64,000 bases of DNA from Candidatus Micrarchaeota archaeon (lineage in GTDB: Archaea; Micrarchaeota; Micrarchaeia; Anstonellales; Anstonellaceae). Below are positions 8,168-22,246 of the stretch, piece after piece. A model generated the notes under the pieces. That model ran no database searches. It worked only from the letters and a program-made list of their open reading frames with translations, and was not told where the DNA came from. The stretch's first letter is position 1; every line of letters begins with the position of its first letter. The stretch is from positions 1,922 to 65,921 of the forward strand of contig JAPLWX010000028.1 of assembly GCA_026396415.1 (NCBI GenBank), read 5' to 3'. The position numbers were made by a program, and so were the translations under genes.

Positions 8168-8980
8168 TTACCTATTCTTTCTTCTCCTGCGCTTCGCTTC
8201 CCTTATCACTGCGTGCGCTGCGCGGTGGAAATTTTCCCTCACTTTTGCTTCCCTCAATATGCGCAAGCCGTGCATGGTAATCCCTTTTTGGGTGGAAACC
8301 ATGCCCTCAATCTCAAGCGGGCGGATGCCCTTTTCCAGGACAAGCGCGCCTGCGCCTTCAGCCGCCTTTGCAGACAGTGCCAGCGCCTGAGAGTATGCCA
8401 GGCCGTGCCTTTCCCCCGCCTTTGCCATTCCCTCGATTGCCGCGAGGAAAAACGCCACGCCTGAGCTGTGGAGGAATGCGGTGTCCATGTCGCTCTCCTT
8501 TTTTGCCCGCATGAGAAGCCCGGTAGGCGCCAGCAGCGCCTCGATTTCATTGGCATCCATGTGCGACTCGGCAAAATACATCGTGGCGCCCTTGCCTATC
8601 TGCACCGCCAGGTTGGGCATGATAAGCGCCACGCGGCAGCTTCTCGGCACGCGCTTTTTGAAGTATGAAAGGGGAAGCCCGGCAACAACTGAGATTATGA
8701 GGGTTTCGCCAAGCTCTTTTCGTATTTCCTCCAGAAGCGCGGCAGTCGCGTCCGGCTTGACCGCGATTATGATGGCGTCCGCGCCCTCCACGGCCTCTTT
8801 CGCGGTTTTTGCCACGCCCGCGCCTGTCTTTCGCGCAAGCGCGGCCGCCTTTGCGTGCGAATGGTCGCACAGCATGAGGCTTGCCCCTTTCCCGCGCGCA
8901 GTCGCCCCGGAGGGCCCGCGGGCGATGCCCATTGCCAGCGCGCTCCCCATCTTGCCAACGCCCAGTATGCATACTTTCAT
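8168..8980 (-). CDS. proC: pyrroline-5-carboxylate reductase
   Basis: N-terminal ILGVGKMG NADP-binding motif. Length (270 aa) and conserved ProC core blocks. Confidence 0.85.
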   Translation of the reverse strand: MKVCILGVGKMGSALAMGIARGPSGATARGKGASLMLCDHSHAKAAALARKTGAGVAKTAKEAVEGADAIIIAVKPDATAALLEEIRKELGETLIISVVAGLPLSYFKKRVPRSCRVALIMPNLAVQIGKGATMYFAESHMDANEIEALLAPTGLLMRAKKESDMDTAFLHSSGVAFFLAAIEGMAKAGERHGLAYSQALALSAKAAEGAGALVLEKGIRPLEIEGMVSTQKGITMHGLRILREAKVRENFHRAAHAVIREAKRRRRKNR

Positions 8981-9175
8981 GCGCTTATTTTTCCCTTCAG
9001 GTTAATAATGGCTAGGCAGACGGAATTCGTCTTATTTTTTACATATTGCACGGATTTCGCCCTCTTTTTTCCCAAAAATGAGTTATTTAGCATGATTTTA
9101 CGGGGGCAAACCATTAAAAACCACCCGCAGCATAACATACTCCGCTGGCCAGAGAGAGGCAAGGAAGTTATACAC

Positions 9176-10150
9176 ATGAGTACGCTAAGGCATCAAAAGC
9201 AAACCATAAGCAAGCGAACGGGCAGAGAAAGCAATAGCAAATTCCGGCATGCGGCCAGGAAAACCGGCAGGTTCTTCGGCATGCTCTTCACAGGCGGGGC
9301 ATTGCTCACTGCTTTGAGCGGGCATACGCAGGACACCACCAGCGCGCCGGCCAGCAAGCCAACTGACAAGCGGTTTGAGATTACGATGGCAAACGCGGGC
9401 AAAGACCTGCCATTGGGTGCGAATGCCGCCAATACCTATGTCGTTCCCGCAAAAGACAGCCCCGACACGGTAGGAAACAGGATGGTAGCTGCGCGCGCGA
9501 AGCCAGCTGGTGGGAAGAATATGGAGCCGGGGCCTGATCCAAACCAAAAGTGGTGCGATGGGATAGAGATTGAGAACGGACAGATGATATTCAGGGGCAT
9601 TGAGAAGGATGGACGGCATGGGAGCGCAAGCATAGATATTAAGGCGTTTTTGGAAAAGTACGGTCTTTTCGATGCAACGACCAATAGCATAAAGTGGCAA
9701 CAGTTTAGAGTAATTAACGGAGAAAAAAAAGTATATTTTGTTGTTGAAGCGAACGGAATGTCGGTGCTGATAACCTCAAATCCAGATTTCGAAAAAGGGA
9801 ACGATACTTGGGGTAAAGCAGTATTTGCATCGGATGGAACGAAGATTTTTACACAGTTGGGTACGATGTTTGCGACTGATGATGGATCCATTGTTGCTAC
9901 TACTCCAACGACCCTTCTCATCATACAAACCGGAATTAATGGTAAGAAATTTGCACATACATACAAAGAAATGTTCAAGGAAGATGTTATTCTGAAAGCG
10001 CCCACATTTGAAAAAAGCGCAAAGGATGTTGTTGAAATGAGAGACGAAACGTTAGTTACCCCGCAAGGAAAAAAAGTAGTTATAACGATTCCTATCTATA
10101 ATTGGGATGGAATTTCTGCAGGTATAGATGAAAAGTTTACTAAGAATTAG
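9176..10150 (+). CDS. hypothetical membrane-anchored/secreted protein (low-GC island)
   Basis: Basic N-terminus, one TM (FFGMLFTGGALLTAL), then a Thr/Lys-rich soluble domain. Local GC is about 40% against about 60% in the rest of the window. Confidence 0.5.
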   Translation: MSTLRHQKQTISKRTGRESNSKFRHAARKTGRFFGMLFTGGALLTALSGHTQDTTSAPASKPTDKRFEITMANAGKDLPLGANAANTYVVPAKDSPDTVGNRMVAARAKPAGGKNMEPGPDPNQKWCDGIEIENGQMIFRGIEKDGRHGSASIDIKAFLEKYGLFDATTNSIKWQQFRVINGEKKVYFVVEANGMSVLITSNPDFEKGNDTWGKAVFASDGTKIFTQLGTMFATDDGSIVATTPTTLLIIQTGINGKKFAHTYKEMFKEDVILKAPTFEKSAKDVVEMRDETLVTPQGKKVVITIPIYNWDGISAGIDEKFTKN

Positions 10151-10161
10151 GGGTTGACGGC

Positions 10162-11004
10162 ATGGTTTTTGCAGAGTTGAATAACAATACAAAAACAACA
10201 AAAGCCGTGATAAATGAAGCGCCTGTGATAGAATCTCCAGTTCAAAAAGTTTCAACTGCAGTGACAGAAACGAATACAAACAGAAAGCTTGTCAAAGCAC
10301 TCCAGGCGTCTGGATTTGAAAACATAAAAATTAATTATAAGGATAAGGACAGAAAAGACGTTTCGCAGCCACCCCCAAATAGTTTTGTGGATTTGGCGGG
10401 TTTTAACAAACTAAAAGAATTCACTATTACTGCAAATATGAAGGATGAGAATGGAAATGTACACAATTGCAACATAAAAATTGCTAATGGTTTTGCCATG
10501 GTTGATGATGGTGGATCTCAACTTGTAGTAAGCAAAGGAAGTAATGCTTCATCGCGTGAATTGTTTAATTATATAGATAAGCAAGAAAAGATGGGAAATT
10601 TGAGCAAAAGTGATGTAAATAAAATAAAGACAGAATATGTAGAAAAAAATACTTTGTCGTGCTTGGACGAGTATTTACAAACGGACGCAAAGTTTCTATA
10701 TAGCTTTAACCAACAAAATATACCTGATAATAACACTCGAAACAAGGCAGATCAGTTGGTAAGAGACGGTAAGAAAAAAGAATATCTGGAATTGATAGAC
10801 AGCCTTGGCTTGCATGAAAAATTTATCGACTTTTTGAATCGAGAGATTCAGAACAAGGCTGGCGCAGGAGCAGTTTCCCCGTCCGATTTGCAGACTTCCT
10901 TTGTGCAGCAGGGCGTGCTGTCCGCGCAGGTCAACAGCGACTTGAACCTTGTCCAGGACAGGGAAAAGGACGCCGTCAAGAAGGGCGGCGGCGACACGGC
11001 TTGA
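10162..11004 (+). CDS. hypothetical protein (low-GC island, Asn/Lys-rich)
   Basis: 280-aa ORF contiguous with the previous gene. Atypical composition. No domain recognised. Confidence 0.45.
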   Translation: MVFAELNNNTKTTKAVINEAPVIESPVQKVSTAVTETNTNRKLVKALQASGFENIKINYKDKDRKDVSQPPPNSFVDLAGFNKLKEFTITANMKDENGNVHNCNIKIANGFAMVDDGGSQLVVSKGSNASSRELFNYIDKQEKMGNLSKSDVNKIKTEYVEKNTLSCLDEYLQTDAKFLYSFNQQNIPDNNTRNKADQLVRDGKKKEYLELIDSLGLHEKFIDFLNREIQNKAGAGAVSPSDLQTSFVQQGVLSAQVNSDLNLVQDREKDAVKKGGGDTA

Positions 11005-13058: not shown

Positions 13059-13508
13059 CTAGAGCCGTTTGAACATTCTGTAAGTCTTGCCCACGCCTTT
13101 GAAAAGGACTGGCTTGACCAAACGGTAGCCGTTCTTTTTGTAAAAGCCCACTGCATTGACCGCGGAGTGCGTCCTGATTGCCTTGAATTTTTTTCTTTTT
13201 GCAATGCGCTCCATCTCGCGGAGAAGGCGGGTTCCGACACCGCGGCCAATATAGGCAGGGTCAACGAAAAACGCGCCCAGCCAGCCGTCGTTGGACAGGT
13301 TTGCCGTCCCAATTATGTTGTTTTTTTCCTCGGCAACAATGATTGTGCAGTTTTTCGCCCTTTCCGCAAGCGCGCGGGGAAGGTTTCTTTTTCTGAGATG
13401 CGCTATAACCCGTGAAGAATAGTATTGTGAGCTGACTTGCTTGAGCGATTTGACTATGCATCTGCTTGTTTTCACTGCATCTTTGTCCTTGAATATGCGG
13501 ATTTTCAT
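13059..13508 (-). CDS. GNAT family N-acetyltransferase
   Basis: Acetyl-CoA-binding motif (G)xGxG: IGRGVGTRLL. GNAT-sized, about 150 aa from the MKIRIF start. Confidence 0.7.
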   Translation of the reverse strand: MKIRIFKDKDAVKTSRCIVKSLKQVSSQYYSSRVIAHLRKRNLPRALAERAKNCTIIVAEEKNNIIGTANLSNDGWLGAFFVDPAYIGRGVGTRLLREMERIAKRKKFKAIRTHSAVNAVGFYKKNGYRLVKPVLFKGVGKTYRMFKRL

Positions 13509-13655
13509 AGCATTTGGATTGGGTGACCCATCATTTTTAAACTCGCTTCGGCAGAAATGCTCTCGCAGGGATGGCAGTTGGAGCCGCTCTTGCGGCTGCC
13601 CGGCCATCCCAGGGCGACCTATTGCTTTTAATCCCCATATTGCAAGAACTGTCTC

Positions 13656-13768
13656 GCAGGGATGGCGGAGCCCGGTTTAACGCGCCAGACTCAAGATCTC
13701 CGCGCAAGTGCGCGGCATGCGTTATCTGGTGACTTAGGTCTTCGGGAGTTCGAATCTCCCTCCCTGCA
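13656..13768 (+). tRNA. tRNA-Leu(CAA) with ~28-nt intron after position 37
   Basis: Acceptor stem GCAGGGA/TCCCTGC, anticodon loop CTCAAGA, T arm GGGAG-TTCGAAT-CTCCC, long variable arm. The sequence atctccgcgcaagtgcgcggcatgcgtt splits the anticodon stem CCAGA/TCTGG. No CCA encoded. Confidence 0.65.
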
Positions 13769-13919
13769 CCTTGTATCATTCTATAGTTGTACCGCTGGAC
13801 TTCGACACGCCCCTAACCCAACTTAGTCAATTTACTGAGGTAAAAACGTGCCGAATTGTGCAGCAAGCTATAAATAGTACTTAACTCAGGACAGGGGGCT
13901 CACTCCGAGGTGAGCACCC

Positions 13920-15119
13920 ATGAACGAGTACGTTATGTACAAATCGCAAACCAACTTCGAGCAGGAGCTGGGAAGATTGAAGGCCTCGGCTTTGCCTGCG
14001 AAGGCCAAGACGCAAATCGAGAACTTCGCACGGATACGCCTTGCCAAAGGCTCGGGCAAGCTCCGCGTTGTGAAATGCATGTACTGCGTCCGGCTGCTTG
14101 CTCAGTGGCTCAACAAGGATTTTTCAAAGGCGACAAAGACCGACCTGATCCGGCTGGTCACCGATATTGACTCCAAAAACTATGCCGAATACACACGCTA
14201 CGATTTCAAAATTGTTTTGAAAATGTTCTACAAGTGGCTTCTTGGGAAAGACGAGGAATTTCCCAATGTCATCAAGTGGCTAAAGCCAAGGCTGAAAAAC
14301 GAAAAGCACAAACTACCAGAGGAATTATTGACAGTTGAGGAAGTGCAAAAGCTCGCCAACTCGACCACCAATCCACGCGACAAGGCGCTTATTTTGGCAT
14401 TATACGAGTCCGGCTGCCGCATTGGTGAGATGCTTTACCTCAAACTGAAGAACGTCCAGTTCGACAATTACGGAGTTGTGCTGATGGTGAACGGCAAGAC
14501 CGGAAGCCGAAGAGTCCGCATAATCGCAAGTGTTCAGGTTCTCGCCGCGTGGCTTCAGGAGCACCCGGACAAAGACAATCCGGATGCGCCTTTATGGCCT
14601 GCGAGATTGGCGAGATATCAGCCAGTGCCTTGCGCCTATCCCTCGATTCGCGCAATGCTCCGCAGGGCAAGCAAGGCAAGCGGCATAAGAAAACGTATTT
14701 ATCCGCATCTTTTCCGCCATTCAAGGGCAACCTCTTTGGCAAACAAACTGACAGAGGCGCAAATGAAAGAATATTTTGGCTGGACGCAAGGAAGCGAAAT
14801 GGCTGCCACCTACGTTCATTTGTCCGGTAGGGATGTTGACACTGCGCTTCTGCAATTGTATTCCATGAAGGACAAGCCGGTCGAAAAGGAGCCAAAACTA
14901 GACCTCAGAATCTGCTCCCGCTGCAAGGAAAAGAACTCGCCTACGCAGTCATTCTGCGGAAGGTGCGGCAACCCGTTTGACGAAAAGGTGCTCATCAGCG
15001 ACTACAACAAGCAGGGGAACGGAATAATGAACGTCCTGATGCAGGACCCGGAAGTGAAGGCGCTGCTCGTGAAAAAAGTATTCGCGATGGGGCTGGACAA
15101 GGAGCTGTTGGAGGAATAA
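13920..15119 (+). CDS. tyrosine recombinase/integrase (copy 1) with C-terminal zinc ribbon
   Basis: Catalytic R (CRIGE), HLFRHS (HxxR) and Y (ATYVHL). C-terminal CSRC-x11-CGRC zinc ribbon. Immediately downstream of the tRNA. Confidence 0.85.
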   Translation: MNEYVMYKSQTNFEQELGRLKASALPAKAKTQIENFARIRLAKGSGKLRVVKCMYCVRLLAQWLNKDFSKATKTDLIRLVTDIDSKNYAEYTRYDFKIVLKMFYKWLLGKDEEFPNVIKWLKPRLKNEKHKLPEELLTVEEVQKLANSTTNPRDKALILALYESGCRIGEMLYLKLKNVQFDNYGVVLMVNGKTGSRRVRIIASVQVLAAWLQEHPDKDNPDAPLWPARLARYQPVPCAYPSIRAMLRRASKASGIRKRIYPHLFRHSRATSLANKLTEAQMKEYFGWTQGSEMAATYVHLSGRDVDTALLQLYSMKDKPVEKEPKLDLRICSRCKEKNSPTQSFCGRCGNPFDEKVLISDYNKQGNGIMNVLMQDPEVKALLVKKVFAMGLDKELLEE

Positions 15120-15700
15120 TTTTTTTGCATTGGGCAGCCAGCCGAGCTGCTCAATCGTTTATAAAGAACTTTGAGCAGCTCAAACACCGTTCCTTGCGCT
15201 ATAATCGCTATCCAAACGTTGATATTTGAGCAGCTCGTACCTCCAGTATATCATTGCTGCGCAGCTGCTCAAAGCTGTTCAGTGAATCAGTCATACTGAA
15301 CAAATGACAACACAATATTCTCAGAAGAGCAAACCAATGAAGTAGGCTGTTCTGGCTGCTGGAACATGCATTTACGCTCAGTATTACGCTCAATTTTTGC
15401 TTGCCTTTTTGTTTTCTATGCGCAGCCAGGAATTACGCTCAGGTTTACGCTCAACGGAGTAAAATAAGCGCAGTAGCAGAGAAATACTATCTGGAGGCGA
15501 TTCGCTTAAATCAGGCGCAATTGGCGGCCAGAACTGGTGTTTAAGCGCAGAATAAGCGCAATCGCCACCGACTGCCGAGATTTTCGATGATGCAGAAAAA
15601 AGTAAGCGCAGATTAAGCGCAATGAATTTTCTGCGCACTTTTTGGAAATAAGCGCAGAGGGTGCGCAAAGGAAATTTTACAGAGAAAATGAATAGTTACA
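15120..15700. repeat. iteron-like repeat array 1 (GAGCAGCTC x4, TTACGCTCA x4, TAAGCGCA x6)
   Basis: Three families of 8-9 bp motifs, irregularly spaced, in a 580-bp non-coding region downstream of integrase 1. Confidence 0.6.
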
Positions 15701-15735
15701 CTAATAGTAGTCTAAAAAGGGTGAAAAATAAAAAA

Positions 15736-16221
15736 TTACTTGAACTTTGCGCGCTCCGGCTTTTTCTCCTCAGGTGGCATAAGCTGTCCAACATGATAGA
15801 ATGCGCGCATAATTTTTTCATCTAGAAATTGTCTGAAACTCTCCTGCTTGTTGTCTATTGCCCATCTTAGCTCGTTCTTGGGACCCGGAAATCCACCGGC
15901 ATCCTGAATAGGTATAACAATGCCATAGAGGTTCTCGAGCAACTCCTTGGTTGGCTTGGCATTTTTCAAGGAAGGGAGTATTTTCTCCCTGATCGTGCTT
16001 GCAAACACCCTATATATGCCCACATAGGCAGGATGTACATTTTTATCAGTGCCTAATGCTGTCATATCGACAAGTCGTTGCGTCACATCTGCTATCTCTT
16101 TTTTGAGGTTTGTCTCGGCTTTTTGCTTCTGTTCAAGCGCCTTTTGGCCTGGTTTGTCCTTGGCTGCTCCGATCATCGCCCCGCTTTTAGCCGGATCCGC
16201 CCAGTTTTGGAAAATCCACAT
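15736..16221 (-). CDS. hypothetical protein, integrative-element cargo (161 aa)
   Basis: The only ORF in element 1 apart from the integrase. No domain recognised. Confidence 0.45.
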   Translation of the reverse strand: MWIFQNWADPAKSGAMIGAAKDKPGQKALEQKQKAETNLKKEIADVTQRLVDMTALGTDKNVHPAYVGIYRVFASTIREKILPSLKNAKPTKELLENLYGIVIPIQDAGGFPGPKNELRWAIDNKQESFRQFLDEKIMRAFYHVGQLMPPEEKKPERAKFK

Positions 16222-16291
16222 AGTCTCGCCTCGGTCAAAATAGGGTGCAATCCTAATTTAAACCTTATCCCTATCCCCTAGTGGTTCCGGT

Positions 16292-16345
16292 CAGACTCTA
16301 GCATCATCCTTGAGTTGCTCCCCCTGCATCTTGTATCATGCACTA
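16292..16345. repeat. att-like direct repeat (copy B)
   Basis: cagactctagcatcatccttgagttgctccccctgcatcttgtatcatgcacta. Near-identical to copy C. The 3' part matches the tRNA-Leu 3' end. Confidence 0.65.
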
Positions 16346-16585
16346 GTCTTATCGCTATCTTTCGTCAATGCACGTCTATTCCTGCGTCAATCTGCAACTA
16401 GCATAGTAGGCACAATAATGCCAAATTACGCACGAACTATAATGAGGCCCCTGCCAAAACAATAATGGCATGAAAAAGAAGCATCTTGCTGCCCTCGTCA
16501 ATGCCCTAACTCCTCCTCGTTGCGTGTCTCGCCTAGGTTTATATAGAAGGTCAAGCAGGACAGGGGGCTCACTCCGAGGTTAAGG

Positions 16586-17728
16586 TTGAAGAACTCGCCC
16601 TTGCCTGCGAAAGCCAAAACACAGATTGAGAACTTCGCACGGATGCGCCTTGCCAAGGGCTCCGGCAAGCTCCGTGTTGTCAAGTGCATGTACTGTGTTC
16701 GCCTGCTCGCTCAGTGGCTCAACAAGGATTTTTCAAAGGCGACAAAGACCGACCTCATACGGCTGGTTACAGATATCGACTCCAAAAACTATGCTGAATA
16801 CACACGCTACGACTTCAAAATAGTCCTCAACATGTTCTATAAATGGCTTCTCGGAAAAGATGAGGAATTTCCCAAGGTCATCAAGTGGCTCAAGCCAAGG
16901 CTGAAGAACGAAAAGCACAAACTGCCGGAAGAATTGCTGACCGTTGAGGAAGTGCAAAAGCTCGCCAATTCCACCACCAATCCACGCGACAAGGCGCTTA
17001 TTTTGGCATTATACGAGTCAGGATGCCGCATAGGTGAAATGCTATACCTCAAACTGAAGAACGTCCAGTTCGACAATTACGGAGTTGTATTGATGGTGAA
17101 CGGCAAGACCGGCAGCCGGAGAGTCCGCATAATCGCAAGCGTTCAGGTTCTTGCCGCATGGCTGCAGGAGCATCCGGACAAAGACAACCCGGATGCTCCA
17201 TTATGGCCTGCGAGATTGGCGAGATACCAGCCAGTGCCTTGTGCCTATCCCTCAATACTCGCAATGCTTCGCAGGGCAAGCAAGGCAAGCGGCATAAGGA
17301 AACGCATTTATCCGCATCTTTTCCGCCATTCAAGGGCAACCTCTTTGGCAAACAAGCTGACAGAGGCGCAAATGAAAGAATACTTCGGTTGGACGCAAGG
17401 AAGCGAGATGGCTACAACTTATGTTCACCTCTCAGGGCGAGATGTGGACACCGCTCTTCTGCAATTGTATTCCATGAAGGACAAGCCGATTGAGAAAGAG
17501 CCAAAGCTCGACCTTCGAATCTGCTCACGCTGCAAGGAAAAGAACTCGCCAACGCAATCCTTCTGCGGAAGGTGCGGCAACCCGTTTGACGAAAAGGTGC
17601 TCATCAGCGACTACAACAAACAGGGGAACGGAATAATGAACGTCCTGATGCAGGACCCGGAGGTGAAGGCGCTTCTGGTCAAGAAGGTCTTTGCGATGGG
17701 GTTGGATAAGGAATTGCTGGAGGAATGA
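16586..17728 (+). CDS. tyrosine integrase (copy 2, N-terminally truncated, possible TTG start or pseudogene)
   Basis: More than 95% identical to copy 1 from AKAKTQIENF onward. The first ~22 codons are replaced by unrelated sequence. No in-frame ATG. The ORF track starts at TTG. Confidence 0.7.
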   Translation: MKNSPLPAKAKTQIENFARMRLAKGSGKLRVVKCMYCVRLLAQWLNKDFSKATKTDLIRLVTDIDSKNYAEYTRYDFKIVLNMFYKWLLGKDEEFPKVIKWLKPRLKNEKHKLPEELLTVEEVQKLANSTTNPRDKALILALYESGCRIGEMLYLKLKNVQFDNYGVVLMVNGKTGSRRVRIIASVQVLAAWLQEHPDKDNPDAPLWPARLARYQPVPCAYPSILAMLRRASKASGIRKRIYPHLFRHSRATSLANKLTEAQMKEYFGWTQGSEMATTYVHLSGRDVDTALLQLYSMKDKPIEKEPKLDLRICSRCKEKNSPTQSFCGRCGNPFDEKVLISDYNKQGNGIMNVLMQDPEVKALLVKKVFAMGLDKELLEE

Positions 17729-17734
17729 TTTCTT

Positions 17735-18440
17735 TTCTTTTGGGCATTGAACAGCTAGCCGAGCTGCGCAATCGTATATAAACATCTTTGCGCAGCTCAA
17801 ACGTTGTTTCTCACGCGATAAACGCTATCCAAACGTTGTTCTTTGCGCAGCTTTCTTCTCCAGAGTATACATGCGTGCAAGCTGCGCAATAGCTGCGCAA
17901 GGAATGAGTGCAATAAGAATAAGACAGCACAATATTCTCAGAAGAGCAAAACAATGAAGTAGGCTGTTCTGGCTGCTGGAACTAGCAATTACGCTCTGTA
18001 TTACGCTCAATTTTTGCTTAGCTAATCGCGTTTCTTGTCGCAGCCAGAGATTACGCTCAAGTTTACGCTCAACGGTGTAAAATAAGCGAGGTAGCAGACA
18101 AATACTCTCAGGAGGCGATTCGCTTAATTTCATAGGAATCGGACGCCAGAACGGGCGTTTAAGCGCAGAATAAGCGCAATGCCCACTGACTGTCAAGTTT
18201 CTCTAGCTCGCAGAAAAATTAAGCGCAGATTAAGCGCAACGAAAACAGGCAGACTCACAGATACTAGCAGGCAAATATTATCTGGGAACGAAACACGCGA
18301 TTTAAGCGCAATTGGCAGCCAGAACAAGAGTTTAAGCGCAAAATAAGCGCAATCGCCACCGACTGTCAGGGTTTTCAATGATGCAGAAAAAAGTAAGCGC
18401 AGGAGTAAGCGCAATGAATTTTCTGCGCATTTTTTGGAAA
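17735..18440. repeat. iteron-like repeat array 2 (GCGCAGCT, TTACGCTCA, TAAGCGCA families)
   Basis: Same architecture as array 1 with more TAAGCGCA copies (at least 10). Downstream of integrase 2. Confidence 0.6.
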
Positions 18441-18451
18441 GCTCTTTGGCG

Positions 18452-18820
18452 TCAAAATGACTGCTCTGTTTTTTCTGATTTTGGCTGCGCGAGTATGCCC
18501 TCAATTTCCTTATGCACCTGTTGCCGCAATTTGAAGGTGTTTCCCATCATCACATAGCCCTGCCAGCCCGAGTTGGATAGGAGTATCCTGCTTTGCTCGA
18601 TTTCGCCTGCCGCGTATTTTGACCTGAAAAGCTCAAGCCTGCCAAGAACCCGGCGCACGTTGCTTTTCTTGAGTATGCGGAAATGGTAGAATGCCCTGAA
18701 ACCAAGGAGCGGCACGCCAATCTGTTTTTCACCTCGCTCTGGGTAGGGGATTTTGCCGTCGTTTGTGGTGCGGATGGATTCGAATACCTGAAAGCCGAAC
18801 ATCACCGGCAGCGATTGCAC
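18452..18820 (-). CDS. hypothetical protein, element cargo (122 aa)
   Basis: ORF co-directional with the next gene. No domain recognised. Confidence 0.35.
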   Translation of the reverse strand: MQSLPVMFGFQVFESIRTTNDGKIPYPERGEKQIGVPLLGFRAFYHFRILKKSNVRRVLGRLELFRSKYAAGEIEQSRILLSNSGWQGYVMMGNTFKLRQQVHKEIEGILAQPKSEKTEQSF

Positions 18821-18834
18821 GCCGGGAGGGCAAT

Positions 18835-19962
18835 TTAGTGCTTGTTAGCCTTGAGGTCGCTCGCCTGCTGCGGGCTTATCCTGCGCAGAACCCTTCCATT
18901 GGGTGTGATGATAGTTTTGCCTTCGGAGATTATTTGTTCTGGTTTTATGCCTGCTGATTCGCTTGTGAAAAAGGGGGTGCCAGCCGGCTTTTCCTCAATG
19001 GTAAGCTTCCGTTTGATCTTGGGCAAGAGAAAGATATTTGCAACTGCATCCGCGTGGTCTTTTTCAGCCCATATGGTTTCACGGGTGGAAATGCAATAAC
19101 CATACTCAAAGTTGCTTATTGCATTAATGAGATGGTGGGGGCTTTTGAAATAGAGACTGAAAGCCGGATGATTGGGAGGCAGATTAATTTCCATGCCAGG
19201 AACCTCAATCAGTAGCACGTTTTTTGCAAATTTCTTGATATCACGCAGCCTGCCCTGGATCTCCCCCATGGCCTCGACCAGGTTAAACCTGAGTTGAGTT
19301 GCAATATCACTGGCAAACCGGCGCTCATTTTCGTCGAGTTCTTTGTTGTATTCCCTGATCGACTCGAAGTTCATTGAAGTAAAATACTGGATTAGGATGG
19401 GTGTGTTGGCGAGTCGTTTGAACTCCGAAAGAGGGAAGAAGTCATCTGGGGCTAAGCTGTTCATTGCATGGACTTCCATCACATAGGTCGATGTTTTACC
19501 GTTGTATTTTGCAAAAATGTCGCTTATCTGCCTTACGCGCTGAAGGTAATCCCAGATGCCCAATGCGCAGCCGCAGGCTTTGTTCGAGTCGGCAAGTTCC
19601 CCTGCCGAGATTTTTTTGCGGATTGACCAACCGATTTCCATTCCATCGTCATTTTGCATCTGTTCTGTTTTCACGCCCATCCGTTCCAGCTTTTCTGCAA
19701 GCGCCCGCTGGAATGGCAAGGTGGTTGGATGCTCACTTGTATGCGGCGATAACAGCACTACTCTTGATGGCTTGGATGGCATAGTGAGGCGTCTGACGAG
19801 TGGAATATCCTTGAACACTGGTTCGCGTATTCTAAGAGTCTGGCGCAATTCAAACCCTAAACTCATGTTATAAAAAGTGTATGCAAGGGTATTTAAAGCT
19901 TTCATCAGGTAGCTCAAGCCAGGGGGCGAAGCCACCTCAAACCCCAAACTCCCCGGTCTCAA
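18835..19962 (-). CDS. hypothetical protein, element cargo (~375 aa)
   Basis: Long ORF in the lower-GC element. No confident domain assignment. Confidence 0.45.
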   Translation of the reverse strand: MRPGSLGFEVASPPGLSYLMKALNTLAYTFYNMSLGFELRQTLRIREPVFKDIPLVRRLTMPSKPSRVVLLSPHTSEHPTTLPFQRALAEKLERMGVKTEQMQNDDGMEIGWSIRKKISAGELADSNKACGCALGIWDYLQRVRQISDIFAKYNGKTSTYVMEVHAMNSLAPDDFFPLSEFKRLANTPILIQYFTSMNFESIREYNKELDENERRFASDIATQLRFNLVEAMGEIQGRLRDIKKFAKNVLLIEVPGMEINLPPNHPAFSLYFKSPHHLINAISNFEYGYCISTRETIWAEKDHADAVANIFLLPKIKRKLTIEEKPAGTPFFTSESAGIKPEQIISEGKTIITPNGRVLRRISPQQASDLKANKH

Positions 19963-20040
19963 TCCACTTCGCCTTCACGAGCTCAAAAGAAGGCTGGCTG
20001 AGAGAGAACGCCGGGAACTCTGATGCCGCTCAGCCTCTAG

Positions 20041-20094
20041 CATCATCCTTGAGTTGCTCCCCCTGCATCTTGTATCATGCACTAATCCTGCCGC
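20041..20094. repeat. att-like direct repeat (copy C)
   Basis: Identical to copy B over 48 nt. Followed by a remnant of the integrase-upstream region (ctaactctccctcgttgcgtgtct) and a TAAGCGCA iteron. Confidence 0.65.
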
Positions 20095-20228
20095 TGCATT
20101 TCACAGCCCCTCGCCTGTCCTCCGTCAAGCCCCTAACTCTCCCTCGTTGCGTGTCTGTATTAACGGGCGAAGTTTCCTTAGGCTGCCCATGTCTTCTAAA
20201 ATGCAGAAAAGATTAAGCGCAATTGCTT

Positions 20229-22031
20229 TCAGTTGAAAATCTGCCTGTTTGCCCCTATCGGCGTGCCTTTGCATCTGATATAGCTTGGGACAATCACTTC
20301 GCCATTTTTGTAAATGACGGAGTTTCTCATCCCCTCGATGCTGGCAGGGAAAAAGCCGTTTTTTAAGTTGAAAACCGCGCCGGTTATGTCCCCGGCTGCC
20401 CCGACCACTATCGTCCCGGGCGATTTTTCAGAAGTCATGTCCACAATGTTTGCCTTGCCTTTCTCATTCTTGCCGCCAAAGGAGCAGCCATAGTATATTG
20501 CGAATTTTGCGCCAGCAGTGAGTTTTCCAACGTAATACTGGTCTTTCTTTTCATTGGCATCCACCCTCGTGTCGCTTGGGCTTGCGGGATAAAACTCTGA
20601 GCCGATGATGCTTTTGCTTCCCACCCGGATGCTGCTGTCCTTTTTCCCTTCAATGGGCTTGACAGCCTTGTTGTTGGTCTCCACGTGCGTTTCGCCAAAA
20701 AGTGAGGAATTCAGCGCCATGTCGCCAGGTTCGCCATGGCCTGCATAAATCATGCCAAAGCCCCTTTTGGCAAGGTTGCCCCCTTCGTTGGCCTCCACAG
20801 CGTCCCTTATCACCCCAAATTGGGGCACAGAGCCAGCCTCGAAAACATACAGCTTGTAATGCTTTGAAAGTTCAAACAGCGTATCCTGGAGGTTCCTGAA
20901 TGTATCCGAAGCGCCCATCAAGCCCATAAGGCTTTCCGAGTTGCCGGCTCCACCCCGTGGCAGCACGACAATAAGGACATCCTTTCCGGAATTATAGGAC
21001 GGGTCCTCATAGTTCTTGATAAGCTCGTCAACCAGCCTCATGTCGCCCTGTTTCCATAGCCTGTCCGCATTTGCTATCCCGAAGTACCTATGCAGCTTGA
21101 GGAATTTGTCCAGCGTCTCAGGCTTGGTGTCAGGCAAGCCACGGTAAAGCAGATTTTCCAGGTAGCGCAGCGGCTCCTTCTCACCCTGTTCAATTATCTT
21201 GGCCAGGAAATCCGCTTCGACCTTGAGGGTTTCCAGCTTTTCCCCTATTGGCTTGTCCCGGGATAGTATCCTGAGGCTCCAGAAAGCTTCGTATGATGGA
21301 TTCTGCTCAAGCTGCGATGCCGAAAATCCGAACTTGAATATGTCCTCTATTGTTTTATTTTGCAGGTCATCCCTTCCTTCTTCATGGGCATTTCCAAGAA
21401 AGTAATCGAGCGTTTTGAGCAGGCTTAGCGCATGGCTGGGCTCGACTTTGCTGGTTCCAGCATCATACAATGCGCGCTCCTGCGCAAGGATGGAAACGTA
21501 CTTATCGAGTATTTTGGTCCTGAGGCCGGAATTCTCTGGGCGGAGGAGGAAGTCGGAATTTTCCAATTCCTCTGTGAAGAAGGTAAAATCGCCAATATCT
21601 GGGTTTTTCAGATGGCGAGCTGCGGCTGTTCCTGCAAAAACAAGTTCCTTGAAAAGAGCGATTTTTTCAGGCGCCTTCATTTTTTCAAATGCGCCCTCCT
21701 TGTTCCCCAGCCACCCGTAAAAGTCATCGCCAAGGCTGCTGACCAACAGCCCAAGCCCATCTTGTGTGTTCCGAGGGTTCTTTTGGAAAGTGAGGCCTTC
21801 GGTTGCCACGGTTGCATCGGAAAGGATAAGGAGGAAATTTTCATAGGCGGAATTGCCCATGTCACGCTTTACCCTATCCAGCACGGCGATTGCGCGTTCG
21901 TCCCCTTTTAGCACATCGCGCAGCATCCCGTCGATTTCTTCAGCCTTTTCATGAGGATCCGCCTTATCCGAAATAATCGCAGGGATGCTGTATGGAACGC
22001 CCTCCAGGCCTTGCTTGTCATTATCTGCCAT
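20229..22031 (-). CDS. hypothetical protein with C-terminal clan-CD-peptidase-like (caspase/gingipain/CHAT-like) His-Gly/Cys dyad
   Basis: About 600 aa. C-terminal blocks LIVVLPRGGAGN, MIYAGHGEPGD and AIYYGCSFGG follow the hydrophobic-x4 + HG and hydrophobic-x4 + C arrangement of clan CD proteases. The N-terminal ~400 aa are helical with unknown function. Confidence 0.45.
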   Translation of the reverse strand: MADNDKQGLEGVPYSIPAIISDKADPHEKAEEIDGMLRDVLKGDERAIAVLDRVKRDMGNSAYENFLLILSDATVATEGLTFQKNPRNTQDGLGLLVSSLGDDFYGWLGNKEGAFEKMKAPEKIALFKELVFAGTAAARHLKNPDIGDFTFFTEELENSDFLLRPENSGLRTKILDKYVSILAQERALYDAGTSKVEPSHALSLLKTLDYFLGNAHEEGRDDLQNKTIEDIFKFGFSASQLEQNPSYEAFWSLRILSRDKPIGEKLETLKVEADFLAKIIEQGEKEPLRYLENLLYRGLPDTKPETLDKFLKLHRYFGIANADRLWKQGDMRLVDELIKNYEDPSYNSGKDVLIVVLPRGGAGNSESLMGLMGASDTFRNLQDTLFELSKHYKLYVFEAGSVPQFGVIRDAVEANEGGNLAKRGFGMIYAGHGEPGDMALNSSLFGETHVETNNKAVKPIEGKKDSSIRVGSKSIIGSEFYPASPSDTRVDANEKKDQYYVGKLTAGAKFAIYYGCSFGGKNEKGKANIVDMTSEKSPGTIVVGAAGDITGAVFNLKNGFFPASIEGMRNSVIYKNGEVIVPSYIRCKGTPIGANRQIFN

Positions 22032-22212
22032 ATGCCTCCATTGCTTATTCTTCAAAAACCCTTTAAATGCACATCTTTCCAGCGCCATTTCATCATTGAA
22101 ATGGATAAGCGCACTTCTGCGGATTGAGCCTGGCGAAATCTTGCATGATACTATGGTTGCACCGCCGCCTTTTGCAGGTTTCCGGATTTTGCCAGCCGAT
22201 CGTCAGCCTCTA

Positions 22213-22246
22213 GCATCATCCTTGGGTTGCCCCTGCACTTTTTGTC
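22213..22246. repeat. att-like direct repeat (copy D, degenerate), distal boundary of element array
   Basis: cagcctctagcatcatccttgggttgcccctgcac lies immediately after the ubiA-family gene stop. Confidence 0.55.

What the first reader, a model, noticed from the sequence alone, without database searches (positions are those of the whole stretch)
13656..22246. Three tandem integration events at tRNA-Leu with near-identical integrases
The tRNA-Leu 3' end is followed by int1. A 54-nt att-like repeat then recurs at about 16292 and about 20041, with a degenerate copy at about 22213. These delimit unit 1 (int1, iterons, orf161), unit 2 (int2, iterons, orf122, orf375) and a third unit with no integrase. 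The third unit keeps a remnant of the integrase-upstream region, one iteron and a 600-aa cargo gene. Int2 has lost its N-terminal ~22 codons. The integrases carry a C-terminal Cys4 zinc ribbon. The array looks like repeated capture of small integrative plasmids or proviruses of one family, with gradual decay.
Basis: seen in the sequence. Interest (0 to 1): 0.7.

Follow-up and report, generated by a model that had tools for sequence, protein, structure and literature searches.

The report
Tandem mobile elements at archaeal tRNA-Leu
An 8.5-kb stretch next to a leucine tRNA gene of a tiny DPANN archaeon (Micrarchaeota) is a stack of four small mobile DNA elements inserted one after another by the same kind of integrase and now in different stages of decay; this is a textbook process, seen here in a little-studied lineage and an apparently undescribed element family.

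Summary
An intron-containing tRNA-Leu(CAA) (13656-13770) is followed by 8,469 bp (13769-22237) that a related genome lacks. In L096-L098 the same tRNA is 16 nt from the ubiA stop codon.

- **Subdivision.** A 7-nt core, CCCTGCA (the tRNA 3' acceptor strand plus discriminator), divides the insert. It has the expected attL / attP-like / attP-like / attR arm pattern.
- **Units.** Unit 1 is 2,560 bp, unit 2 is 3,739 bp, unit 3 is about 2,070 bp, and a vestigial fourth unit is about 100 nt.
- **Integrases.** int1 and int2 are 98% identical in protein but 89.8% in DNA (dS 0.62, dN/dS 0.02). They are old copies under purifying selection, not a recent duplication.
- **Decay.** Unit 3 is a deletion derivative. 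orf122 in unit 2 is a reverse-transcriptase fragment.
- **Integrase type.** It is Xer-like with an invariant C-terminal Cys4 motif. The family is widespread in Micrarchaeota, usually beside tRNA-Leu, and forms arrays elsewhere (L006/L012, L118, L055).

- Only 7-11 nt of the "54-nt repeat" come from the tRNA; the rest is element ends.
- int2 lacks 19 codons, not 22.

No circular form, Rep gene or capsid gene was found. The iteron module's function is unknown. Verdict: real, a new member of a known kind, of moderate interest.

The parts
13656..13770 (+). tRNA-Leu(CAA) with a 28-nt intron (13696-13723); the integration target
   Evidence: ARAGORN -i. Rfam tRNA 45.6 bits. Identical to the L096 tRNA outside the intron loop.
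13762..13768 (+). attL core CCCTGCA (3' acceptor strand plus discriminator)
   Evidence: Homology to the empty site L096 ends right after this heptamer. The same heptamer sits at every unit boundary.
13769..13816 (+). P' arm (left end) of unit 1
   Evidence: P' profile built from non-window loci, E = 2.5e-15.
13920..15119 (+). int1: Xer-like tyrosine recombinase, 399 aa, with a C-terminal Cys4 zinc ribbon
   Evidence: PF00589 at 69.7 bits. Invariant R167, K193, H263, R266, W288, Y298 and C332, C335, C346, C349. AF2 pLDDT 77 with XerA as top fold match.
15120..15735 (+). Non-coding iteron module of unit 1: an A block (15130-15284) with four palindromic TTGAGCAGCTC sites around TATA-like boxes, then 4 TTACGCTCA and 6 TAAGCGCA copies in pairs 11-12 nt apart
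   Evidence: The module is conserved after int in L009, L011, L012, L013 and L084.
15736..16221 (-). orf161, cargo of unit 1, function unknown
   Evidence: No hit in Pfam, PHROGs, NCBIfam or PADLOC. The exact protein occurs on independent Logan contigs L091 and L092.
16291..16376 (+). Junction between units 1 and 2 (attP-like): P arm 16291-16318, core 16322-16328, P' arm 16329-16376
   Evidence: E = 1e-14; E = 1e-13.
16586..17728 (+). int2: 380 aa, TTG start, lacks the first 19 codons of int1
   Evidence: 98% aa and 89.8% nt identity to int1; dN/dS 0.02, dS 0.62.
17729..18450 (+). Non-coding iteron module of unit 2: the A block uses TTGCGCAGCT sites and the B block is duplicated
18452..18820 (-). 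orf122: C-terminal (thumb) remnant of a stand-alone reverse transcriptase, a pseudogene fragment
   Evidence: PHROG RT E = 1.5e-5. tblastn hits to full-length RVT_1 and DRT-like RTs in sister elements.
18835..19962 (-). orf375, cargo of unit 2. Uncharacterised family; relatives align from about aa 41, so the true start is probably internal
   Evidence: 73 cluster representatives; invariant H74, D138, H165, E286, Y289; no Pfam or PDB match.
20030..20115 (+). Junction between units 2 and 3 (attP-like): P arm 20030-20057, core 20061-20067, P' arm 20068-20115
20115..20221 (+). Backbone remnants in unit 3: integrase-upstream region (20115-20156) and last iteron block (20183-20221). int and most iterons are deleted
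   Evidence: (families D4 and D17).
20229..22088 (-). orf619 ORF (called as 600 aa, 20229-22031), cargo of unit 3, a near-orphan
   Evidence: One 40%-identical relative among 5.8e9 proteins. AF2 model unusable, pLDDT 37.
22138..22179 (+). Vestigial P' arm, the left end of a fourth, almost fully deleted unit
   Evidence: Fourth and only other hit of the P' profile in the window, E = 2e-5.
22203..22237 (+). attR: P arm 22203-22230 plus core 22231-22237. It is followed by the chromosomal sequence CTTTTTGTCCTCT and the ubiA stop codon (22251)
   Evidence: The same junction appears in independent assemblies L086-L089. The L096 empty site has a comparable T-rich spacer.

Best explanation
The region is a tandem array of four small integrative elements of one family. 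Their sizes are 2,560 bp, 3,739 bp, about 2,070 bp and about 100 bp. They were inserted by site-specific recombination at the extreme 3' end of tRNA-Leu(CAA) in a Candidatus Micrarchaeota (DPANN) chromosome.

**Element structure.** Each complete element encodes an Xer-like tyrosine recombinase with a C-terminal Cys4 zinc ribbon. A complete element reads: left arm P', integrase promoter, int, a roughly 600-nt non-coding iteron module, one or two cargo genes on the opposite strand, right arm P.

**Mechanism (inferred).** A circular form carrying attP (P-CCCTGCA-P') recombines with attB. attB is the tRNA 3' acceptor strand plus discriminator, CCCTGCA, followed by the T-rich tRNA trailer. The crossover lies in the last 7 nt of the tRNA, so the gene stays intact.

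**Array formation and decay (inferred).** Later arrivals recombine with an existing att site, producing attL (B-O-P'), internal P-O-P' junctions and attR (P-O-B'). Decay increases with distance from the tRNA:
- Unit 1 is intact.
- Unit 2 has int shortened by 19 codons, a duplicated iteron block and a truncated RT gene.
- Unit 3 has lost int.
- Unit 4 is reduced to its two arms.

This gradient suggests that new elements enter at the tRNA-proximal site and push older ones outward. Integrase-less units keep usable att sites. A neighbouring integrase could in principle excise them, like cis-mobilisable elements.

**Shown versus inferred.** Shown: the insertion relative to an empty site, the att arm pattern, the old divergence of both integrases under selection, the deletion remnants, and recurrence of the family and of arrays. 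Inferred: the circular intermediate, the order of arrival, current activity, and the role of the iterons.
For: - **Empty site.** In L096-L098 tRNA-Leu(CAA) sits 16 nt from the ubiA stop, with MIPS on the other side. The tRNA is identical and homology stops after CCCTGCA. The left flank (P5CR, CDP-OH transferase, MIPS) and right flank (ubiA, arginase, HMG-CoA reductase) are syntenic.
- **Att logic.** The P arm is shared by 16291, 20030 and 22203. The P' arm is shared by 13769, 16329 and 20068, plus a vestige at 22138. The core is at all four boundaries.
- **Integrases.** int1 versus int2 gives dS 0.62 and dN/dS 0.02, with 102 of 117 differences at third codon positions. All catalytic and Cys4 residues are invariant across the family.
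- **Backbone versus cargo.** The backbones are collinear at 86% while the cargo is unrelated. Unit 3 keeps backbone remnants in order. orf122 is a truncated RT.
- **Family.** 165 relatives were found in GTDB species representatives, nearly all labelled Micrarchaeota. A tRNA ending in ...CCCCTGCA lies 94-260 nt upstream in many of them.
- **Arrays and P arms elsewhere.** P arms lie 2-5 kb downstream of int in many loci. Arrays occur in L006/L012, L011, L022, L055 and L118.
- **Same site in other species.** Different DNA occupies it in L093 and in L094/95.
- **Mobility signal.** Integrase dS between the window and the L007/L053 genome is 0.49-0.78, against 0.94-1.0 for flanking chromosomal genes.
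- **Composition.** Array GC is 0.45-0.51 against 0.55-0.60 for the right flank.
Against: - No free circular form was found. None of 19 metagenome contigs carrying the P-O junction has a terminal overlap.
- IMG/VR holds no relatives.
- No strain of this population shows a different number of units.
- No replication, transfer or virion gene is present in any unit, so how the elements replicate or move between cells is unknown.
- Among full-length sequences int1 and int2 are each other's closest relatives (290/300 bootstraps). This also fits an in-situ duplication.
- The order of arrival rests only on the decay gradient.
- The window is from a MAG, and the attL and unit 1/2 junctions were not confirmed in an independent assembly.
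Confidence: 0.8

Rival explanations
1. In-situ tandem duplication. A single element integrated once and was then duplicated locally, for example by unequal crossing-over between att sites. The copies diverged in place, with cargo replaced by later recombination.
For: - int1 and int2 are sisters among full-length family members (290/300 bootstraps).
- Their backbones are collinear at 86% from int to the end of the iteron module.
- Their P arms are almost identical.
Against: - dS of 0.62 is as deep as the distance to copies in another species. Over the same 606 nt, int2 versus L053 gives dS 0.49 and third-position distance 0.228, against 0.257 for int1 versus int2. The bootstrap for this is only 75%.
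- The cargo segments share nothing.
- The P'-to-int spacers differ in length (150 against 257 nt). L007's spacer matches unit 2's rather than unit 1's.
- Arrays of unrelated units occur at other tRNA-Leu genes.
- The site was empty in a relative no more distant than L007.
Confidence: 0.12
2. Integron-like capture platform. A resident integrase at the tRNA captures integrase-less gene cassettes one by one, so unit 3 (and the int-less units of L006) never had an integrase.
For: - Int-less units bounded by P arms and holding one or two genes recur: unit 3 here, and ParE/antitoxin and an S8 peptidase in L006/L012.
- IntI is among the weaker sequence and fold relatives of the integrase.
Against: - Unit 3 retains the integrase-upstream segment and the last iteron block in the same order as complete units, which is the signature of an internal deletion.
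- One L006 boundary is a P arm truncated at the core, which again indicates deletion.
- No inverted repeats or hairpins of the attC type occur at the junctions.
- Integron-integrase models score far below cutoff: 51 bits against 265, and 28 against 435.
Confidence: 0.06
3. Not mobile. The integrase-like genes are host Xer recombinases and the repeats are their chromosomal sites, inherited vertically.
For: - The closest solved and curated relatives are archaeal XerA.
- Purifying selection is very strong: dN is lower than in the flanking housekeeping genes.
- The family is widespread in the phylum.
Against: - The whole segment is absent from the same site in L096-L098.
- The protein scores 91.8 bits against the 220-bit XerA equivalog cutoff.
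- Several paralogues occur per genome, next to different tRNAs.
- Synonymous divergence between species is lower than that of the host genes.
Confidence: 0.02

Closest known systems
Tandemly integrated archaeal mobile elements and 'cryptic integrated elements' with non-suicidal (pNOB8-type or Xer-like) tyrosine integrases at tRNA genes. The review PMC8371274 (section 24) cites tandem integration in Krupovic et al. 2010 and 2019.
   Same: - A tyrosine recombinase is encoded intact next to a tRNA 3' end.
- Direct att repeats bound the element.
- Several related elements are integrated in tandem at one locus.
- Integrase loss and decay follow integration.
- Some elements have no recognisable replication or virion genes.
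   Different: - The host is a DPANN archaeon (Micrarchaeota). The review text mentions neither DPANN nor zinc ribbons.
- The elements are very small (2.2-3.7 kb).
- The integrase has an invariant C-terminal Cys4 ribbon plus a helical tail after the catalytic Tyr.
- Identity with the tRNA is only 7-11 nt.
- A conserved iteron-rich non-coding module follows int.
Tandem accretion of ICE/IME elements and cis-mobilisable elements (CIMEs) in Streptococcus (Pavlovic, Bellanger and colleagues; cited from my own knowledge)
   Same: - Successive integrations into one att site give arrays.
- Deletion derivatives lack recombination genes but keep att sites.
- A neighbour's integrase can excise those derivatives.
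   Different: - Those elements are bacterial, much larger, and conjugative or mobilisable.
- Excision has been shown experimentally there, but not here.
Tycheposons of Prochlorococcus (bioRxiv 10.1101/2020.12.28.424599)
   Same: - Tyrosine-recombinase elements sit at tRNA genes.
[quoted passage not shown]
- Fragmented integrases and extra att remnants mark older events.
- Cargo is variable.
- The hosts have small, streamlined genomes.
   Different: - Tycheposons are bacterial and carry replication modules (primase or helicase).
- Their att sites are longer partial tRNAs.
- Circular forms were shown by PCR.
- No homology of the integrases was tested here.
Archaeal XerA (PDB 4A8E, 5HXY)
   Same: It is the best sequence and fold match, with the same two-domain architecture and catalytic residues.
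   Different: - The window protein has about 100 extra C-terminal residues with the Cys4 motif.
- It is multi-copy and tRNA-linked.
- It is absent from the empty site.
- It scores below the XerA equivalog cutoff.
SSV-type 'suicidal' integrases and pTN3-type integrases of Thermococcales (PMC8371274)
   Same: They are archaeal, target tRNA genes, and are implicated in chromosomal inversions. A related genome (L007) has this tRNA and its element in inverted orientation.
   Different: Here the att site lies upstream of int, not inside it, so int is not split on integration. No similarity to those families was tested directly.

Membership tests
Tyrosine site-specific recombinase (Phage_integrase, PF00589) | Pfam PF00589 match above the gathering score | tested here: met
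   69.7 bits against a 27.1-bit cutoff, residues 137-302.
Tyrosine site-specific recombinase (Phage_integrase, PF00589) | Catalytic R-K-H-R-(H/W)-Y residues | tested here: met
   R167, K193, H263, R266, W288 and Y298 are invariant in 22 sequences down to 52% identity.
Tyrosine site-specific recombinase (Phage_integrase, PF00589) | Two-domain core-binding plus catalytic fold | tested here: met
   AF2 model with pLDDT 77. Foldseek top hits are XerA 5HXY and 4A8E (E = 5e-10), then XerH, IntI, lambda Int and Cre.
Archaeal XerA (chromosome dimer resolvase) | Score above the NCBIfam NF040815 equivalog cutoff | tested here: not met
   91.8 bits against a 220-bit cutoff.
Archaeal XerA (chromosome dimer resolvase) | Stable chromosomal gene, not flanked by att repeats | tested here: not met
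   Absent from the orthologous site in L096-L098. Two copies here and several paralogues per MAG.
tRNA-targeting integrative element | Integrase adjacent to the tRNA 3' end, with direct repeats of the tRNA 3' end at both borders | tested here: met
   int1 starts 150 nt after the tRNA. The core CCCTGCA is at 13762, 16322, 20061 and 22231. The repeat shared with the tRNA is short, 7-11 nt.
tRNA-targeting integrative element | Uninterrupted (empty) site in a related genome | tested here: met
   In L096-L098 the tRNA sits 16 nt from the ubiA stop and homology ends at the core.
tRNA-targeting integrative element | Excised circular form with an attP junction | tested here: inconclusive
   19 metagenome contigs carry P-O and none has a terminal overlap. 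P-O-P' junctions seen could be array-internal. Read-level data are not available with these tools.
Provirus | Capsid, packaging or other virion genes | tested here: not met
   PHROGs, Pfam and NCBIfam match only the integrase, plus a weak RT hit for orf122. IMG/VR holds no relatives. Orphan cargo proteins could hide novel capsid proteins.
Integrative plasmid | Replication initiator gene together with an origin | tested here: not met
   No Rep, helicase or primase gene is present in any unit. Iteron-like repeats are present, but an origin function is untested.
Integron | IntI-type integrase and attC hairpin sites bounding promoterless cassettes | tested here: not met
   Integron-integrase models score 51 and 28 bits against cutoffs of 265 and 435. 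No inverted repeats occur at the junctions.
SSV-type suicidal integrase element | att site inside the int gene, so that int is split on integration | tested here: not met
   int1 is intact and lies 150 nt downstream of the core.
Cis-mobilisable (integrase-less) derivative | Bounded by functional att sites and excisable by a related integrase in trans | not testable with these tools
   Unit 3 has a P' arm (E = 2.6e-12) and a P arm plus core at its ends. Excision would need an experiment or read data.

The most novel reading that the evidence does not exclude
These are members of an undescribed, phylum-wide family of minimal integrative elements in Micrarchaeota. Each consists of an unusually constrained Xer-like integrase with a zinc-ribbon tail, a host-tracking iteron module that lets the element replicate or be maintained with host factors alone, and a single interchangeable cargo gene. 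Together they would turn tRNA-Leu genes into gene-capture and turnover platforms. The cargo seen includes defence-type RTs, toxin-antitoxins, proteases and orphan genes. This would be a functional analogue, in genome-reduced DPANN archaea, of tycheposon islands or integrons.
Probability: 0.3. Interest if true: 0.65.

Novelty: new member of a known kind. Interest (0 to 1): 0.45.

Why it matters
- **A documented route for gene turnover in DPANN.** DPANN archaea have tiny genomes and depend on hosts, and their mobile elements and routes of gene gain are poorly charted. This locus, with its empty site and sister loci, shows that small tRNA-Leu-targeting elements repeatedly deliver and lose accessory genes in Micrarchaeota. 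The integrase family can serve as a marker for finding such islands.
- **A tractable recombination system.** It has a 7-nt core, defined arms and an extra zinc-ribbon domain, which suits biochemistry.
- **An annotation caveat.** Standard tRNA and Rfam scans miss the intron-containing target tRNA, so automated island finders will miss these elements.

The process itself, tandem accretion and decay at a tRNA, is well known. The value lies in the lineage and the family, not in a new principle.

Tried and rejected
- **tRNA detection.** Default ARAGORN and Rfam gathering mode found no tRNA. Allowing introns and using permissive Rfam resolved this.
- **Inversion idea.** L007 has ubiA directly upstream of, and co-directional with, the tRNA. 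I considered that the window's array sits between tRNA and ubiA because of an inversion between inverted cores (GCAGGG / CCCTGC). I rejected this for the window. L096-L098 and L093 show that the convergent tRNA/ubiA order and the MIPS flank are ancestral. L007 is the rearranged genome.
- **Circular forms and strain variants.** I searched a metagenome scan of the P-O junction, IMG/VR, and exact-protein look-ups of ubiA, orf619, orf161, int1 and an orf375 relative. None was found.
- **Cargo function.** Pfam, PHROGs, NCBIfam and PADLOC gave nothing except the RT remnant.
- **orf600 caspase-like idea.** The AF2 model was unusable (pLDDT 37), so the His/Cys dyad idea stays an untested resemblance.
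- **Iteron module as a known RNA.** Rfam found no hit at E <= 1.
- **Iterons as classical arm-type integrase sites.** I judge this unlikely. They lie 0.7-1.9 kb from the core, and no iteron cluster follows the 95-97% identical integrases of L001, L007 and L008, although L001 and L007 hold under 1 kb past int.
- **Phylogenetic test of independent arrival.** It was not decisive. int1 and int2 are sisters among full-length copies, and a partial copy from another species is marginally closer to int2.

Full report
**1. The observation**

The window has a single tRNA gene, tRNA-Leu(CAA) at 13656-13770 on the + strand, interrupted by a 28-nt intron.
- Default ARAGORN and Rfam at gathering thresholds report nothing.
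- ARAGORN with introns allowed finds it. Rfam's permissive mode scores it at 45.6 bits.
- The intron, and all later hits, point to an archaeon.

Downstream lie int1 (13920-15119, 399 aa) and int2 (16586-17728, 380 aa), 98% identical as proteins.

A 28-nt motif, TCAGCCTCTAGCATCATCCTTGAGTTGC, occurs at 16291, 20030 and 22203 with at most one mismatch. It occurs nowhere else in 64 kb, and shuffles expect 0.00 matches.

- 17 of the window's 18 TAAGCGCA copies lie in the array, all on the + strand (2.67 expected).
- All 7 TTACGCTCA copies lie there too (0.27 expected).

**2. Anatomy of the att sites**

Aligning the four boundaries shows the pattern expected of site-specific integration rather than a simple 54-nt repeat.
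- **Core.** All four share the heptamer CCCTGCA, at 13762, 16322, 20061 and 22231. It is the 3' strand of the tRNA acceptor stem plus the discriminator base.
- **P arm.** The sequence to the left of the core is common to the three downstream sites.
- **P' arm.** The sequence to the right (CTTGTATCAT.C..TAGT..ACCGCT...) is common to the three upstream sites.
- **Resulting series.** The boundaries read B-O-P' (attL), P-O-P', P-O-P' and P-O-B' (attR).
- **attR flank.** After attR come CTTTTTGTCCTCT and then the ubiA stop codon.
- **Independent P' profile.** A profile built only from other loci hits the window four times. Three are the expected sites (E <= 1e-12). The fourth is 22138-22179 (E = 2e-5), so a fourth unit reduced to its two arms sits between orf619 and attR.
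- **Extent shared with tRNAs.** Only 7 nt are shared with this tRNA. The attP core region CTCCCCCTGCA matches other tRNA-Leu 3' ends over 11 nt. No repeat of the tRNA end of 13 nt or longer recurs downstream in any family member examined.

**3. The empty site**

UbiA homologues on long contigs were fetched.
- **L096, L097 and L098** (UbiA 83% identical). The order is arginase(-), ubiA(+), then after 16 nt tRNA-Leu(CAA) on the opposite strand with the same 28-nt-long intron, its promoter, and the myo-inositol-1-phosphate synthase gene (MIPS).
- **The window** has MIPS(-), a GNAT gene, the tRNA(+), 8,469 bp, ubiA(-) and arginase(+).
- **Junction.** The tRNAs are identical outside four intron bases, and similarity stops immediately after CCCTGCA.
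- **Synteny.** Further genes on both sides are collinear.
- **Other occupants of the same site.** L093 has about 1 kb with a 286-aa ORF. The genome of L094/L095 has about 1.2 kb with a 245-aa ORF, ending in a variant P arm against ubiA.
- **L007** is rearranged: its tRNA is co-directional with ubiA and is followed by a 97%-identical integrase.

The site is a hot spot.

**4. The units**

Units 1 and 2 are collinear at 86% from int through the end of a roughly 600-nt non-coding module. Their cargo segments are unrelated.
- **Divergence of the integrases.** int1 and int2 differ at 117 of 1,143 nt, 102 of them at third codon positions. This gives dS 0.62 and dN/dS 0.02.
- **int2's N-terminus.** It lacks the first 19 codons. 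A conserved upstream element ending in GAGGT is retained 5 nt before a TTG start. Many family members have short N-termini.
- **Unit 3.** It keeps a P' arm, 42 nt of the integrase-upstream region and the last iteron block, in the same order as complete units. This is the signature of a roughly 1.8-kb internal deletion.
- **orf122 in unit 2.** It is the thumb-domain remnant of a stand-alone reverse transcriptase. The RT is full-length (RVT_1, DRT-like) in sister elements.
- **Decay gradient.** Decay increases with distance from the tRNA.

**5. The integrase and its family**

- **Type.** It is a tyrosine recombinase (PF00589). Its closest relatives are archaeal XerA by sequence and fold. It scores far below the XerA equivalog cutoff.
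- **Conserved residues.** The six catalytic residues and C332, C335, C346 and C349 are invariant in 22 members down to 52% identity.
- **C-terminal extension.** The zinc ribbon and a helical tail follow the catalytic tyrosine.
- **Distribution.** The family has 165 relatives in GTDB species representatives. Nearly all are labelled Micrarchaeota, often with several per genome.
- **tRNA linkage.** In about a third of loci a tRNA lies 94-260 nt upstream. It is mostly tRNA-Leu of any anticodon, ending in ...CCCCTGCA.
- **Element size.** P arms recur 2-5 kb downstream of int.
- **Other arrays.**
  - L006/L012: radical SAM, int and Ank; then ParE/antitoxin; then an S8 peptidase.
  - L118: tRNA-Leu, int, a P-O-P' junction, then a second int.
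  - L055.
- **Divergence between species.** Between the window and the L007/L053 genome, integrase dS is 0.49-0.78, against 0.94-1.0 for three flanking chromosomal genes. Integrase dN is 3-10 times lower. This suggests movement after the hosts split, and unusually strong constraint.

**6. What is not shown**

- No unit has a replication, transfer or virion gene.
- orf600 has one relative among 5.8 billion proteins, and its model is unusable.
- orf375 belongs to a small uncharacterised family.
- IMG/VR has no relatives of the integrase.
- None of 19 metagenome contigs with the P-O junction is circular.
- Other assemblies of this population show the same ubiA/orf600/attR junction and break at the repeats.
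- 'Plasmid or provirus' therefore remains open. 'Cryptic integrated element' is the accurate label.

**7. The iteron module**

- **Position.** It lies between the convergent int and cargo genes.
- **A block.** Four palindromic sites surround two TATA-like boxes. The sites read TTGAGCAGCTC in unit 1 and TTGCGCAGCTC in unit 2, and all sites of a block change together.
- **Iterons.** Ten to twelve same-strand copies of TA[AC]GC[GT]CA follow, in pairs 11-12 nt apart, with pairs 61 nt apart.
- **Distribution.** The module follows int in L009, L011, L012, L013 and L084. No iteron cluster follows the 95-97% identical integrases of L001, L007 and L008, although L001 and L007 hold under 1 kb past int. 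In L084 it is 80-89% identical beside an integrase only 47% identical, at tRNA-Thr.
- **Reading.** It therefore appears dispensable for Int and tracks the host lineage. I favour an origin or maintenance region that uses host factors (about 40%) over regulatory operators or an RNA promoter. This is inference only. Rfam finds nothing.

**8. Rivals**

- **In-situ duplication.** int1 and int2 are sisters among full-length copies. Against this, their divergence equals inter-species distances, and a partial copy from another species is marginally closer to int2 (75% bootstrap). Their cargo and P'-to-int spacers also differ.
- **Integron-like capture of int-less cassettes.** The backbone remnants in unit 3 and the lack of attC-type hairpins contradict it.
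- **A host Xer role.** The empty site excludes it.

**9. Comparison and verdict**

The process matches three known cases:
- Tandem integration described for archaeal elements (PMC8371274).
- Accretion and CIMEs in streptococci (from my own knowledge).
- Tycheposon islands.

What is particular here is the DPANN host, the very small elements, the zinc-ribbon-tailed Xer-like integrase, the 7-11-nt core and the iteron module. My literature searches found no description of this family, but the library is incomplete.

I rate it a new member of a known kind, interest 0.45.

Noticed in passing
window 13525-13655: A second copy of the native tRNA-Leu promoter plus the first 11-14 nt of the tRNA lies about 90 nt upstream of the real gene. 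It matches the L096 promoter better (33/41) than the copy directly in front of the tRNA does (27/41). A 14-nt direct repeat, CTCGCAGGGATGGC (13564 and 13653), flanks about 75 nt that include the hairpin GGGATGGC...GCCATCCC. This looks like a scar of an event at the tRNA 5' end, or of replacement of the tRNA gene.
   Followed up: partly
window 13059-13607 (-): A GNAT acetyltransferase ORF lies between MIPS and the tRNA. It is absent from that position in L096. Its annotated N-terminus overlaps the relic promoter, so the true start is probably the Met at about 13508. A 35%-identical GNAT sits between the P' arm and int in element L010.
   Followed up: partly
L007 9540-10010; L101 and L111 P-O junctions: In the related MAG bin-1051 the tRNA-Leu(CAA) is co-directional with ubiA, separated by a 30-nt spacer with a TATA-like box, and the integrase follows. 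In L101/L111 a P-O junction abuts a sequence resembling the MIPS promoter region. Together these suggest that the tRNA and its array are inverted between ubiA and MIPS in that lineage.
   Followed up: partly
window 18452-18820; L082 11640-12974; L021 5647-6588; also L024, L027, L030, L044, L079: Stand-alone reverse transcriptases (RVT_1; best PADLOC matches are RT/DRT and CRISPR-associated RT models) are recurrent cargo near integrases of this family. The window keeps only the thumb-domain fragment.
   Followed up: yes
L084 11105-11560 versus window 15130-15612: The non-coding module is 80-89% identical beside an integrase that is only 47% identical and sits at tRNA-Thr. L084 carries both A-block variants (TTGCGCAGCT and TTGAGCAGCT sites) and TAGGCGCA iterons. 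The module behaves as an exchangeable unit that tracks the host.
   Followed up: partly
int genes versus ubiA, arginase and orf428 (window versus L007/L053): The integrase is far more conserved at the protein level (dN 0.012-0.03) than the neighbouring housekeeping genes (dN 0.09-0.13) between the same genomes. That is unusual for a mobile-element integrase.
   Followed up: partly
L006/L012 2937-12973: This is another array bounded by four P arms, one of them truncated at the core. Its cargo is a radical SAM protein, int, iterons, an ankyrin-repeat protein, a ParE toxin with its antitoxin, and a 1,354-aa S8/NosD-type peptidase.
   Followed up: partly
window 13656-13770 and loci: Micrarchaeota tRNA-Leu genes carry introns of very different lengths (28-127 nt) at the canonical position. 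Default tRNA and Rfam scans miss them, and ARAGORN sometimes assigns odd identities (Val, Cys, Pro) to tRNAs that end in ...CCTGCA.
   Followed up: no
window 20229-22031 (-): orf600 has motifs YAGHGEPG and YYGCSFGG in its C-terminal half that resemble a caspase-like His/Cys dyad. Permissive Pfam gave no support and the AF2 model failed.
   Followed up: partly
window 8855-11004: A low-GC stretch (0.39) holds two ORFs (431 and 280 aa) with no Pfam match. It sits at a syntenic position between P5CR and the CDP-alcohol phosphatidyltransferase gene. Related genomes have different unknown ORFs there.
   Followed up: no
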